Below the pieces are notes generated by a model. The model saw nothing but the letters and a program-made list of their open reading frames with translations, was not told the DNA's origin and did no database searches. A DNA stretch of 43,791 bases from Candidatus Heimdallarchaeota archaeon (lineage in GTDB: Archaea > Asgardarchaeota > Heimdallarchaeia > JABLTI01). The DNA lies in contig JAHLVW010000072.1 in the NCBI GenBank assembly GCA_019058275.1, positions 1-43,791 of the forward strand, read 5' to 3'. The translations under genes were made by a program, and so were the position numbers. Shown one piece after another: positions 16,965 through 37,242 of the stretch; the stretch's first letter is position 1, and each line of letters begins with the position of its first letter.

Positions 16965-17639
16965 ATGTCAGCTTTAATAGATGAAAGTGTCAAACAAATG
17001 GTAAAACAACGTTTTATGGATCTGAAAGAACCTGTGACAATTAAAGTTTTCTCTACTAAAGATCATTGTCTTTTTTGTAATGAAATGATCTCATTAGTTA
17101 ACGGTGTAACAGAACTTTCAGATAAAATAAAAGTTGAAGTTTGTGATTGTAATGAAGAAGATCCAATGGCTAAGAAATATGGAATTGAAAGACATCCAGC
17201 CTTAGCTATTGTAGGAGATGAAGACTACGGTGTTCGTTTCTTTGGTGTTCCTGCAGGAAAAGAATTTACTACATTAATTGAGTCAATTATGCTTGTATCT
17301 AATCGAGAACCTGTTCTTTCTCCGGAAGCCAAGGATTTATTGAAGAAGATTATTAAAAAAGTGAACCTCAAGGTTTTTGTCACCTTAGAATGTCCATATT
17401 GTCCTGCTATGGTTATAAGAGCACATAAATTAGCATTAGCTAGTGACAATATAACTGCTGAAATGATTGAATCTTCTCAATTTGCCAAGTTAGCATCAGA
17501 TTTTGATATCTTTGGTGTTCCCAATACAGTCATCAATAACAGTAAAGGTAGTGTGGAAGGTTTGGTTACTGAAGAAATACTTCTACAACAAATACTTCAT
17601 GCACTGGAAATATCTGGGGAAACAACCCCTTTCACATAA
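16965..17639 (+). CDS. protein disulfide oxidoreductase (PDO; two thioredoxin folds, AhpF-N-like)
   Basis: Two CXXC motifs (CLFC, CPYC); RFFGVPAGKEF; cis-Pro GVP; AGGAG RBS. Confidence 0.9.
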   Translation: MSALIDESVKQMVKQRFMDLKEPVTIKVFSTKDHCLFCNEMISLVNGVTELSDKIKVEVCDCNEEDPMAKKYGIERHPALAIVGDEDYGVRFFGVPAGKEFTTLIESIMLVSNREPVLSPEAKDLLKKIIKKVNLKVFVTLECPYCPAMVIRAHKLALASDNITAEMIESSQFAKLASDFDIFGVPNTVINNSKGSVEGLVTEEILLQQILHALEISGETTPFT

Positions 17640-34889: not shown

Positions 34890-35705
34890 TTGCCAAGATT
34901 GTACCAACGAAAAATTGTCTTACTTGGAGACCCAGGAGTAGGTAAAACAAGTCTTGTTCAAAGGTACATTTATGATACATTCCAGAAGAACTATATGACA
35001 ACACTTGGTCTCAATTTTTATGTCAGAACATTCGAATATCCAGATGCACAAGTTAAACTTCTTATTTGGGACATTGCAGGACAAAAGAGCAGAAGAAAAA
35101 TTGGTCTTAGGTATCTACAGGGAGCATCTGGTGCTTTATTGGCTTATGATTTAACTGACCCAATAAGTTTTGACAATCTAGCTGGATGGTATGAGGATCT
35201 TAAAAATGCCAATAACGGAAAGGATGTTCCTGTTATCATTGTAGGAACAAAATTAGATCTTGCACAAACAAATCATCTCCCCTTAGCATATAATGTTAAA
35301 AAGCTAGGAGATACTCCTGCTGCTAAGGCTAATTTAATATTCACTAGTGCAAAAACAGATACTAATGTAGATGCAGCATTTAACTTGATGATTCAAGAAA
35401 TTGTAAGTGGATTACTTCCAATTCCTGATATCTCTCCTAAAATAAGAAAGGAGATTGCTACTAAAATTTTGTTCTTTGTGAAAAAAGGTGATGCTTGGTC
35501 GAAAGTAGCATTTAATCATTTAGAAAAAGTTGGAAAGAAATACGCTCTTAGTGTTGAAACTATTGATGCTGAAGAAGATCCAAGCATAGCTGAAGCTTAT
35601 GGTGTAACAGCATTACCAACAATCCTAGTTGGTGGAAGACATCTAGTAGGGATAATACAAATTGCTCACTTAGAAGATATAATTAAGCAAATGTTAGAAT
35701 CTTAA
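34890..35705 (+). CDS. Rab-like small GTPase fused to a C-terminal thioredoxin-fold domain
   Basis: G1 GDPGVGKT, G2 YMTTLG, G3 WDIAGQ, G4 GTKLD, G5 TSAK. C-terminal about 80 aa KILFF...VETIDAEEDPSIAEAYGVTALPTILVGG...LVG is thioredoxin-like. Confidence 0.88.
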   Translation: MPRLYQRKIVLLGDPGVGKTSLVQRYIYDTFQKNYMTTLGLNFYVRTFEYPDAQVKLLIWDIAGQKSRRKIGLRYLQGASGALLAYDLTDPISFDNLAGWYEDLKNANNGKDVPVIIVGTKLDLAQTNHLPLAYNVKKLGDTPAAKANLIFTSAKTDTNVDAAFNLMIQEIVSGLLPIPDISPKIRKEIATKILFFVKKGDAWSKVAFNHLEKVGKKYALSVETIDAEEDPSIAEAYGVTALPTILVGGRHLVGIIQIAHLEDIIKQMLES

Positions 35706-35710
35706 CACTT

Positions 35711-36484
35711 TTATTTTCTTTTTTGGATTTTACCATCAGGACTGTATCCTTCACGCATTCTATGTCCAGCAATATATTGAAAGATTTTACCTTGACAAGC
35801 AGTCAATTTCTGTTGGATTTCAAATTCATTTGTAAAATTAATAAATTCATCAATCCTATTTGCTAAGTCGTTCAATTCGTCATGTGTTAAACGATTTCCA
35901 GCAGTATTGATACATTGTAATAATCCATCTGAAACTTGAGTGAGTATTTCCTTTCCGGGATAAAAAGTTACTATACCCACAATTTCCCATAAAATGTTGT
36001 TAATTATGTCTTTATCTCCTTTCTCTGCGAAATACTCCGCTACTTGTGATAAAGCCATAGCATAATTAAATTGTACAAAAGGATTGTTTTGATGTTTAGA
36101 AGCAAAGTTACCTAATTTGGTTAAAGTTTTGTGAATATCCTTATCCATTTCATTCATAATGTAATGGTAAACTAAAGCACTCAAAGCCTCACTATAAGTT
36201 TCTTGAATATCTTCTGAATATCCTTGTGTTCTTAGCAAACCTTCGATTTTACCAAGCATTTGTTCAGAATCTCTGAATTTTTTGGCAACTCCAAAAGGTT
36301 CTAAGGCATGTCTATAAGCTTCTGCCATAATAACTTGAATTTTGGGATCATTTCTAAAGTGCTTAACTTCCTTATCAAAATCATTTAGTGTTTGAACTAC
36401 GGATCTCATATTACCTGTTTTACCATGGGAAATAATCGCATTTATTATTGCTTTTAGATTACTTATTGATGGTCTTGCAGGCAT
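35711..36484 (-). CDS. hypothetical all-alpha (helical-repeat-like) protein
   Basis: 257-aa ORF with GGAG RBS; recurring ~44-aa units (IQVIMAEAY, IQETYSEAL, VQFNYAMAL, ILTQVSDGL). Confidence 0.7.
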   Translation of the reverse strand: MPARPSISNLKAIINAIISHGKTGNMRSVVQTLNDFDKEVKHFRNDPKIQVIMAEAYRHALEPFGVAKKFRDSEQMLGKIEGLLRTQGYSEDIQETYSEALSALVYHYIMNEMDKDIHKTLTKLGNFASKHQNNPFVQFNYAMALSQVAEYFAEKGDKDIINNILWEIVGIVTFYPGKEILTQVSDGLLQCINTAGNRLTHDELNDLANRIDEFINFTNEFEIQQKLTACQGKIFQYIAGHRMREGYSPDGKIQKRK

Positions 36485-36636: not shown

Positions 36637-37242
36637 TTAGGAATTGCTTTTGGATTTTTGGCTGGATTTGGTTTTGGGTCTTTTGATAACCTCATCTATT
36701 GTGTCAATTGCTTCTTTTTGTTTCTTCTCCATAGTGGAATCAATGATTACATTAGCTATTGATTGGAATACATCAGCTACTCCATCACCTGTTGCAGAGG
36801 ATGTTTCAAGATATTTAACAAAATTATATTTGTCATTTAAATCTTCAAAAGAAGATAATTCAAATGAAACTCCATGAGCAAGATCCTTTTTTCCACCTAC
36901 TAAAATTAATTTGGTTTTACTTGAGTTAAGAGCTAAATCAGCCCATTCCGGAATGCTATTCAATGTATTTAGTCTTGTAAGATCAAACATGATAACAGTA
37001 ACGGTTGCACCTTTGAAATATTTATCAAAGATCCCCATTTTCTTGAACTGTTCTTGTCCACCCAAATCCCAAATCTGAACTAAAACAGAATGTTCACCAG
37101 TTTGAATTTCATGTGTATGAAATGCTGCACCTATAGTCAATTTTGTGGAATCAATAAAACTATTCGTAATATACCTATGAATTAATGTGGTTTTTCCAAC
37201 TCCACCATCTCCTGCTAAAACTACCTTTGCTAGTAATCTCAC
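36637..37242 (-). CDS. Rab-like small GTPase
   Basis: G1 GDGGVGKT, G2 LTIG, G3 IWDLGGQEQF, YFKGA, G4 GGKKD, G5 ETSSA; K/S-rich tail. GTG start after GGTG. Confidence 0.9.
   Translation of the reverse strand: MRLLAKVVLAGDGGVGKTTLIHRYITNSFIDSTKLTIGAAFHTHEIQTGEHSVLVQIWDLGGQEQFKKMGIFDKYFKGATVTVIMFDLTRLNTLNSIPEWADLALNSSKTKLILVGGKKDLAHGVSFELSSFEDLNDKYNFVKYLETSSATGDGVADVFQSIANVIIDSTMEKKQKEAIDTIDEVIKRPKTKSSQKSKSNS

What the first reader, a model, noticed from the sequence alone, without database searches (positions are those of the whole stretch)
34890..35705. Rab-like GTPase fused to a thioredoxin fold that has lost its CXXC
Seen: all five G motifs (G4 TKLD) are followed by a PIPDISP linker and a Trx/glutaredoxin-like domain (~35457-35705). 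DAWS sits where CxxC is expected (FFVKKGDAWSKVA), while the IDAEEDP..AEAYGV and cis-Pro ALPT elements remain. The whole protein has no Cys. Established: Asgard genomes have expanded Rab-like families, and redox-inactive Trx folds act as interaction modules (e.g. phosducin-like proteins). I do not recall a described Rab-Trx fusion. Inference: a GTP-switched adaptor; relatives retaining CXXC would imply redox-gated GTPase signalling.
Basis: partly seen in the sequence, partly recalled or inferred. Interest (0 to 1): 0.72.

Follow-up and report, generated by a model that had tools for sequence, protein, structure and literature searches.

The report
Rab-like GTPase fused to cysteine-free thioredoxin
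One family of Heimdall-type Asgard archaea has a gene that joins a Rab-like GTP switch to a small thioredoxin-shaped domain that lost both catalytic cysteines yet is very strongly conserved, and each of its genomes also carries a sister gene with the cysteines intact; no paper found describes the pairing, and its function is untested.

Summary
ORF 34890-35705 (+, 271 aa, TTG start) has an intact Ras-family G domain (Pfam Ras E 3e-40; closest solved folds are all Rabs), a conserved proline-rich linker, and a C-terminal minimal thioredoxin fold. In that fold D-A-W-S sits exactly where CxxC belongs, and the cis-Pro-Thr loop is kept.

It is not an assembly artefact. There are 27 protein clusters from independent assemblies, and it occurs in 12 of 12 genomes of one GTDB family-level lineage of Heimdallarchaeia. 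It was not found in 71 other genomes of the class or in about 290 other Asgard genomes.

Each of the 12 genomes also has a paralogue (about 280 aa) with the same architecture and an invariant C-x-W-C. The two G domains are sisters on a tree (100/98), which implies one fusion, then a duplication, then loss of both cysteines.

The cysteine-free domain is under strong purifying selection (dN/dS about 0.07) and is more conserved than its CxWC sister. The most likely reading is a GTP switch carrying a non-catalytic, thioredoxin-derived binding module, but this is untested.

I found no published description. This scan has already noted the same family on other DNA.

The parts
34890..35705 (+). Whole gene: 271-aa Rab-like GTPase fused to a cysteine-free Trx fold (TTG start, stop included)
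   Evidence: ORF list and translation. 27 homologous clusters of 269-277 aa, plus one truncated at 244 aa. Orthologues in L001-L011 lie in conserved synteny.
34890..35414 (+). Ras-superfamily G domain, Rab-like (residues 1-175)
34926..34949 (+). G1 / P-loop, GDPGVGKT (residues 13-20)
   Evidence: Invariant in 27 family members.
34998..35003 (+). G2 / switch I threonines, T37-T38
   Evidence: Invariant.
35070..35084 (+). G3 / switch II, DIAGQ (residues 61-65), with the catalytic Gln kept
   Evidence: D61, A63, G64 and Q65 are invariant.
35247..35258 (+). G4, TKLD (residues 120-123)
   Evidence: Invariant. The paralogue family has NKID here.
35346..35354 (+). G5, SAK (residues 153-155)
   Evidence: S153 and K155 are invariant.
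35418..35438 (+). Conserved proline-rich linker, PIPDISP (residues 177-183)
   Evidence: P179, D180 and P183 are invariant in the family. dN/dS of the linker is 0.07.
35463..35702 (+). Minimal thioredoxin fold (residues 192-271): b1 192-197, a1 202-217, b2 221-226, a2 231-236, b3 244-247, b4 250-253, a3 258-270
   Evidence: AF2 model built with a 41-sequence alignment, pLDDT 83. The domain profile against PDB matched eight chains, nearly all named thioredoxins, best E 5e-5, with 1fo5 (MJ0307 Trx) at 1.5e-4. hhalign to the paralogue's Trx domain gave 97.8%, E 7e-13.
35490..35501 (+). DAWS (residues 201-204) at the N-terminus of helix a1, in the columns of CxxC
   Evidence: D is 26/26 and S is 26/26 in this family, against C 13/13 and C 13/13 in the paralogue family; W is shared by both.
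35616..35621 (+). cis-Pro loop, P243-T244
   Evidence: Invariant across both fusion families and two free relatives.
35646..35651 (+). V253-G254, the third loop of the thioredoxin substrate groove
   Evidence: G254 is invariant across all 41 sequences and V253 is nearly so.

Best explanation
The gene encodes a soluble two-domain signalling protein. An intact Rab-like GTP/GDP switch is joined through a short conserved proline-rich linker to a minimal (MJ0307/glutaredoxin-like) thioredoxin fold. In that fold the two redox cysteines have become Asp and Ser.

Shown here:
- The domain architecture.
- Its conservation.
- Its origin by duplication of a Rab-Trx(CxWC) fusion gene that the same genomes still keep.
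- Loss of both cysteines in every member.
- Purifying selection on the cysteine-free domain as strong as on the G domain.

Inferred:
- Without cysteines the domain cannot exchange disulfides.
- It does keep the three loops that form the thioredoxin peptide-binding groove: the DxWS loop with its Trp, the cis-Pro-Thr loop and the Val-Gly loop.
- It therefore most likely acts as a non-catalytic 'pseudo-thioredoxin' that holds a partner protein.
- The nucleotide state of the attached G domain would control that binding, or the binding would be reported to the G domain.
- The likeliest partners are clients or components of the pathway served by the redox-active sister protein.
For: - Architecture.
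- Conservation: 27 clusters at 62-96% identity. Present in 12/12 genomes of one family-level lineage in conserved synteny.
- Paralogue: invariant CxWC in the same columns, and its Trx domain passes Pfam Thioredoxin at 35.0 bits against 23.5.
- Homology of the two Trx domains: hhalign 97.8%, E 7e-13.
- G domains are sisters: 87/98 on the first tree, 100/98 starred once the three most distant sequences were left out.
- Selection: median pairwise dN/dS is 0.073 (G domain), 0.069 (linker) and 0.068 (Trx).
- Relative conservation: against each related genome listed in both searches, the cysteine-free domain is more conserved than the CxWC domain, apart from the nearest genome, where they are 96% and 95%. 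Examples are 78% against 44% and 65% against 50% identity to this genome's copies.
- Groove loops: invariant.
- Lineage context: this lineage uses the same mini-Trx as an add-on in other signalling proteins, PAS-Trx-PAS-histidine kinase and Trx-V4R. In other Asgard families the closest free Trx is encoded next to a Rab-like GTPase and a roadblock protein.
Against: - No partner, activity or expression is shown; no RNA run holding the gene was listed.
- dS is saturated (about 1.5-1.8), so the dN/dS values are approximate.
- The inter-domain packing rests on one AF2 model (pTM 0.83; the five models ranged from pLDDT 63 to 83), and its coordinates could not be inspected.
- Asp and Ser are common helix N-cap residues, so the replacement may be purely structural.
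- The GTPases next to free Trx genes in other families are not the closest relatives of the fused G domains. That neighbourhood link therefore holds only at the level of domain families.
Confidence: 0.5

Rival explanations
1. Obligate pair with the sister protein. The cysteine-free and the CxWC Rab-Trx proteins would heterodimerise, perhaps through their Trx domains, in the way RagA/B-RagC/D GTPases pair through their C-terminal roadblock domains. That would give an enzyme/pseudo-enzyme GTPase dimer that couples thiol redox state to GTP signalling.
For: Both paralogues are present in 12 of 12 genomes of the lineage and nowhere else among the genomes searched. They share one origin and one architecture. 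The two have diverged in different ways, including an extra conserved Cys before strand b1 in the CxWC family only.
Against: The two genes are on different contigs and are not neighbours (C67 and C28). The co-occurrence is within a single lineage, so it counts as one evolutionary observation. No complex prediction could be run. Thioredoxin folds are usually monomeric.
Confidence: 0.15
2. Intramolecular regulator. The Trx-like domain packs on the G domain and tunes its own nucleotide cycle, acting as a built-in GDI-, GAP- or GEF-like element rather than binding an external partner.
For: The best AF2 model has a high pTM (0.83), and the linker is short, conserved and proline-rich; together these suggest a fixed domain arrangement. 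The linker is under the same constraint as the domains.
Against: The five AF2 models differ widely in confidence (pLDDT 63-83). The interface could not be inspected. No known GAP, GEF or GDI uses a thioredoxin fold (from general knowledge, not tested here).
Confidence: 0.2
3. Decaying relic. After the duplication the Trx domain of this copy lost its function and is simply carried along by a working GTPase.
For: Both catalytic cysteines are lost and the domain scores below the Pfam cut-off.
Against: dN/dS of the domain is about 0.07, the same as the G domain. 33 of its 80 residues are invariant across 27 clusters. Apart from a near-tie with the nearest genome, it is more conserved than the redox-active sister domain. 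No member has it truncated, apart from contig-end fragments.
Confidence: 0.03
4. Artefact. An assembly chimera or a frameshift has joined two separate genes.
For: None found.
Against: The same single open frame occurs in 27 clusters from NCBI, JGI, ENA and Logan assemblies, and in 12 genomes. Sediment metagenome runs from several studies hold the DNA.
Confidence: 0.01

Closest known systems
Asgard Rab-like small GTPases and their multidomain forms (Thor-Rab, PDB 7EZB; GTPases of the cultured Lokiarchaeon strain MKD1; Tran et al. 2024, PMC10933270)
   Same: A Rab-like G domain with all G motifs and no C-terminal prenylation cysteines. Asgard GTPases are known to occur fused to other domains: roadblock, longin, and 'various domains of unknown function'.
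   Different: That paper and Liu et al. 2020 do not mention a thioredoxin partner domain. Here the partner is a Trx fold, and it occurs as a CxWC / DxWS paralogue pair confined to one Heimdallarchaeial family.
The paralogous Rab-Trx(CxWC) protein of the same genome (G000 contig C28, 1295-2146, minus strand; 283 aa)
   Same: Same two-domain architecture, sister G domain, homologous Trx domain with the same Trp and cis-Pro-Thr.
   Different: It keeps both cysteines plus a third conserved Cys before strand b1. Its G4 motif is NKID rather than TKLD, and its linker is longer. Its Trx domain passes Pfam and evolves faster.
MJ0307-type archaeal mini-thioredoxins (PDB 1fo5; TIGR00411; Pfam Thioredoxin_3)
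   Same: Size and secondary-structure order b-a-b-a-b-b-a, the cis-Pro loop, and a weak but specific sequence match.
   Different: Those are free-standing redox proteins with CxxC. This domain is fused, has no cysteine, and scores below the family cut-offs.
Redox-inactive thioredoxin folds used as binding modules (phosducin-like proteins, KaiB, Dim1/TXNL4A)
   Same: A thioredoxin fold without catalytic cysteines used for protein binding. Phosducins bind a G-protein subunit. This comparison is from general knowledge.
   Different: No sequence relationship was detected (KaiB only 13.4 bits against a cut-off of 27; no phosducin match listed). None of them is fused to a small GTPase. This is an analogy of principle only.
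DNAJC27/Rbj (Rab-like G domain with a C-terminal J domain; PDB 6jmg)
   Different: The C-terminal domain is a J domain, not a Trx fold. It is eukaryotic and unrelated in origin.

Membership tests
Ras superfamily small GTPase (Pfam PF00071) | Score above the curated cut-off, with G1-G5 motifs present | tested here: met
   137.8 bits against 21.6. The motifs GDPGVGKT, T38, DIAGQ, TKLD and SAK are invariant in the family.
Ras superfamily small GTPase (Pfam PF00071) | Small-GTPase fold | tested here: met
Rab family in the strict (eukaryotic) sense | C-terminal prenylatable cysteine(s) | tested here: not met
   The protein has no cysteine, and the C-terminus is a Trx fold.
Rab family in the strict (eukaryotic) sense | Placement inside eukaryotic Rabs on a tree; RabF motifs | not tested
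   Only a similarity ranking was made (the listed top Foldseek hits are all Rabs). No tree with eukaryotic Rab, Ras, Rho and Ran was built. 'Rab-like' is therefore a description, not a membership claim.
Thioredoxin-fold superfamily | b-a-b-a-b-b-a core with a cis-Pro loop before strand b3 | tested here: met
   The AF2 secondary-structure order fits. P243-T244 are invariant. The profile against PDB matched eight chains, nearly all named thioredoxins. hhalign to the paralogue's Pfam-positive Trx domain gave 97.8%.
Thioredoxin-fold superfamily | 3-D match of the isolated domain to solved thioredoxin folds | tested here: inconclusive
   The whole-model searches were filled by the G domain (residues 1-177).
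Thioredoxin / glutaredoxin oxidoreductases (Pfam PF00085, PF13192; TIGR00411) | CxxC active site | tested here: not met
   D201 and S204 occupy the two Cys columns in 26 of 26 members.
Thioredoxin / glutaredoxin oxidoreductases (Pfam PF00085, PF13192; TIGR00411) | Score above the curated cut-off | tested here: not met
   PF00085 16.1 bits against 23.5; TIGR01068 20.5 against 96.8; TIGR00411 18.0 against 92.75.
KaiB | Pfam PF07689 above cut-off | tested here: not met
   13.4 bits against 27.
Phosducin-like proteins | Phosducin-family sequence match, with an N-terminal helical domain plus a Trx-like domain | tested here: inconclusive
   No phosducin family appears among the 25 Pfam rows shown, out of 28 found at E <= 1. 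The N-terminal domain here is a GTPase, not the phosducin helical domain.

The most novel reading that the evidence does not exclude
The cysteine-free and the CxWC Rab-Trx proteins work as one unit: a Rag-like pair, or a sensor/decoy pair. The redox-active member would read the thiol redox state. The redox-dead member would bind the same clients without turning them over. Together they would convert redox state into a GTPase output, giving a redox-gated small-GTPase switch in the archaeal group closest to eukaryotes.
Probability: 0.12. Interest if true: 0.75.

Novelty: new variant of a known kind. Interest (0 to 1): 0.5.

Why it matters
Asgard archaea carry many eukaryote-like small GTPases, but almost none has a known partner or input. 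Here a GTP switch is covalently tied to a thioredoxin-derived module, and the module occurs as a matched active/inactive pair. This gives a concrete hypothesis to test, that thiol redox state or a thioredoxin client is wired to a GTPase, and it comes with a natural control (CxWC against DxWS). It is also a clear example of a pseudo-enzyme domain that is more constrained than its catalytic sister. Its reach is limited, because the architecture was found in only one family-level lineage and has no eukaryotic counterpart.

Tried and rejected
- Single-sequence AF2 gave an unusable model (pLDDT 40). The alignment-based model was used instead.
- The PDB structure searches with the whole model (Foldseek, and VIA-align over about 48,000 representative chains) returned only GTPases. 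They do not test the C-terminal fold, and they listed no solved structure with this two-domain architecture.
- An exhaustive phmmer of the C-terminal domain against 1.84 billion representatives gave only 9 hits. None was a free-standing DxWS domain, and the only other GTPase fusion belonged to the CxWC paralogue family.
- The ESM Atlas could not read this protein. A homologue returned only generic Rab-like clusters at low scores.
- I tested whether the fused G domains are orthologues of the GTPases encoded next to free Trx genes in other Asgard families. They are not their nearest relatives on the tree.
- Five paper searches found no description of a small GTPase-thioredoxin fusion. The library lacks most subscription journals.
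- The GDP/GTP-dependent interface and the A/B heterodimer could not be modelled, because no complex prediction was available and no model coordinates were accessible.

Full report
**The gene.** The window has about 32% G+C throughout. An open frame runs from 34890 to 35705 on the + strand (271 aa, TTG start). A GAGGT lies 9-13 nt upstream of the start. Orthologues start at the same codon position with ATG or TTG.

**G domain.**
- Pfam places residues 8-171 in the Ras family (137.8 bits, cut-off 21.6), and NCBIfam in small_GTP.
- All five G motifs are present and invariant in the family: GDPGVGKT, T38, DIAGQ, TKLD and SAK.
- With a 41-sequence alignment, AlphaFold2 gives a model of mean pLDDT 83 and pTM 0.83.
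- The listed top Foldseek hits in the PDB are all Rab GTPases (27-37% identity, E about 1e-15).
- 'Rab-like' is therefore a fair description. Membership of eukaryotic Rabs was not tested by phylogeny, and the protein has no prenylatable C-terminal cysteine.

**C-terminal domain.** After a conserved linker (PIPDISP; P179, D180 and P183 invariant), the model shows b1 192-197, a1 202-217, b2 221-226, a2 231-236, b3 244-247, b4 250-253 and a3 258-270. This is the order of a minimal glutaredoxin/MJ0307-type thioredoxin fold.

On its own the domain is below the curated cut-offs (Thioredoxin 16.1 against 23.5 bits; TIGR00411 18.0 bits). The evidence that it is nonetheless a Trx fold:
- phmmer against all PDB sequences returns almost only thioredoxins and related oxidoreductases.
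- A profile of eight family members matches eight chains at E <= 0.01, nearly all named thioredoxins or designed Trx variants (best 5e-5; MJ0307 thioredoxin 1fo5 at 1.5e-4). D201 and S204 align to the two cysteines.
- P243-T244 (the cis-Pro loop) and G254 are the only columns invariant across all 41 aligned fusion and free sequences.

**Not an artefact; narrow distribution.**
- A word-indexed search of 5.8 billion proteins found 27 clusters, 26 of 269-277 aa and one truncated at 244 aa, at 62-96% identity. They come from NCBI, JGI, ENA and Logan assemblies. Nearly all that carry names are Heimdallarchaeota or 'Asgard group'.
- Eleven species-representative genomes carry the full-length gene, in fully conserved synteny. 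The gene order is ECF transporter A/A'/T, an M24 methionine-aminopeptidase-type peptidase, this gene, a convergent 257-aa helical protein, and a second Ras-like GTPase.
- In whole-genome searches the gene is in 12 of 12 genomes of one GTDB family-level group (two genera) and in none of 71 other genomes of the class.
- No frame of this size carrying the domain was seen in about 290 further Asgard genomes sampled across the phylum.
- Sediment, subsurface and cold-seep metagenome runs hold the DNA or parts of it. No RNA holder was listed.

**The sister gene.**
- The same genome encodes, on contig C28, a 283-aa protein with the same architecture whose Trx domain reads C-T-W-C where this one reads D-A-W-S.
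- That family has 13 clusters, and frames of about 280-296 aa occur in all 12 genomes of the lineage (one cut at a contig end).
- It has invariant C-x-W-C, plus a third Cys before strand b1 in 12 of 13 members. This gene's family has D in 26/26 and S in 26/26 at the CxxC columns, and no conserved cysteine anywhere.
- The sister's Trx domain passes Pfam Thioredoxin (35.0 bits).
- Profiles of the two C-terminal domains match at 97.8% probability, E 7e-13.
- On maximum-likelihood trees of the Ras-superfamily domains of this genome plus members of both families, the two fused G domains are sisters. Support is 87/98 on the first tree, and 100/98 after the three most distant sequences were left out.
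- Both sit on long stems, so the tree alone could mislead. The shared architecture is independent support.
- The simplest history is one fusion, one duplication, and then loss of both cysteines in this copy. Free relatives and the sister all have CxxC.

**Selection.**
- Pairwise Nei-Gojobori estimates over 11 orthologues give median dN/dS of 0.073 (G domain), 0.069 (linker) and 0.068 (Trx-like domain). dS is saturated at about 1.5-1.8, so these values are approximate.
- Against each related genome listed in both searches, the cysteine-free domain is more similar to this genome's copy than the CxWC domain is to its own. The exception is the nearest genome, where the values are 96% and 95%. Elsewhere they are, for example, 83/54, 78/44 and 65/50%.
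- The domain is therefore not decaying. It is more constrained than its catalytic sister.

**Context in the lineage and beyond.**
- In this genome, every relative of the mini-thioredoxin found among ORFs of at least 70 aa is part of a larger protein. These are a PAS-Trx(CVYC)-PAS-histidine kinase, a Trx(CYAC)-2xV4R protein with a KaiC-like gene 1.5 kb away, a two-unit protein disulfide oxidoreductase in the window (16965-17639), and the two GTPase fusions.
- In other Asgard families the closest free Trx (107-135 aa frames, CAFC or CPFC) lies in a cluster of Rab-like GTPase, roadblock/LC7 protein, Trx, two KaiC-like ATPases and a TPR protein. This was seen in seven loci that I read, six of them with a GTPase within about 1.5 kb.
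- Those GTPases are not the nearest relatives of the fused G domains. The neighbourhood therefore supports a general GTPase-thioredoxin association in Asgard archaea, not a direct gene-to-fusion descent.
- Earlier notes of this scan describe a Lokiarchaeal GTPase-Trx-V4R operon. I did not see V4R in the loci I read, but the Trx-V4R fusion in this genome fits that picture.

**Mechanism.** The architecture, origin, cysteine loss and constraint are shown. The function is inferred. The domain cannot do thiol-disulfide exchange. It does retain the three loops of the thioredoxin peptide groove, so I favour a non-catalytic binding module attached to a working GTP switch (confidence about 0.5 for the whole statement). 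The rivals are:
- an obligate pair with the CxWC sister (0.15);
- an intramolecular regulator of the G domain (0.2);
- a relic (0.03);
- an artefact (0.01).

**Novelty.** Multidomain Asgard GTPases are known (PMC10933270). None of the searched papers mentions a thioredoxin partner. Public records call these proteins only 'GTP-binding protein'. This scan has already reported the same family on other genomes and the sister gene in this genome. The finding is a further member of something the scan has already seen, not a first sighting.

Noticed in passing
G000 contig C115:18420-20378 (minus strand); L041 295-2253: A 652-aa sensor histidine kinase with a CVYC mini-thioredoxin domain inserted between two PAS domains (PAS-Trx-PAS-HATPase_c). 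Frames of about 560-700 aa holding this domain occur in the related genomes of the family.
   Followed up: partly
G000 contig C89:45538-47031 (+); L042 1381-2874: A 497-aa protein with an N-terminal CYAC mini-thioredoxin followed by two V4R domains. A KaiC-like gene lies 1.5 kb downstream (C89:48604-49386).
   Followed up: partly
L055-L061 (other Asgard families, coded f11 and f28): The closest free-standing relatives of the Trx domain (107-135 aa frames, CAFC/CPFC) lie in a recurring cluster: Rab-like GTPase, roadblock/LC7 protein, Trx, two KaiC-like ATPases, TPR protein. 66 of 76 sampled genomes of family f11 have such a Trx.
   Followed up: partly
G009:C37:10399-10653, G008:C17:17049-17321, G031:C61:6258-6533 and similar places in genus g8: Thioredoxin-like frames of about 86-99 aa with one or two in-frame TGA codons, in several genomes of one Heimdallarchaeial genus. 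These may be selenocysteine-containing mini-thioredoxins.
   Followed up: no
G010-G015, G027, G030 (genus g8): Frames of about 565-581 aa (400 aa in G030) holding a Trx-like stretch with one in-frame TAG. They recur across several genomes. They may be two adjacent genes in one frame, or a read-through; not examined.
   Followed up: no
window 35711-36484 (-) and 36637-37242 (-): A 257-aa all-helical protein with no Pfam family lies convergent with this gene (5-nt gap), followed by a second Ras-family GTPase (201 aa, Pfam Ras E 7e-36). Both are syntenic in all related genomes, and that GTPase is 78-98% identical across them.
   Followed up: partly
window 16965-17639 (+): An ordinary archaeal two-unit protein disulfide oxidoreductase (CLFC and CPYC; Thioredoxin_3 E 2e-18).
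   Followed up: yes
G000 contig C28:1295-2146 (-), the CxWC paralogue family: This family has a third conserved cysteine immediately before strand b1 of the G domain (12 of 13 members). It is absent from the cysteine-free family and could be a partner for the CxWC site.
   Followed up: partly
P0035 (77 aa, from the representative search): A free-standing, cysteine-free Trx-like protein 39% identical to the C-terminal domain.
   Followed up: no
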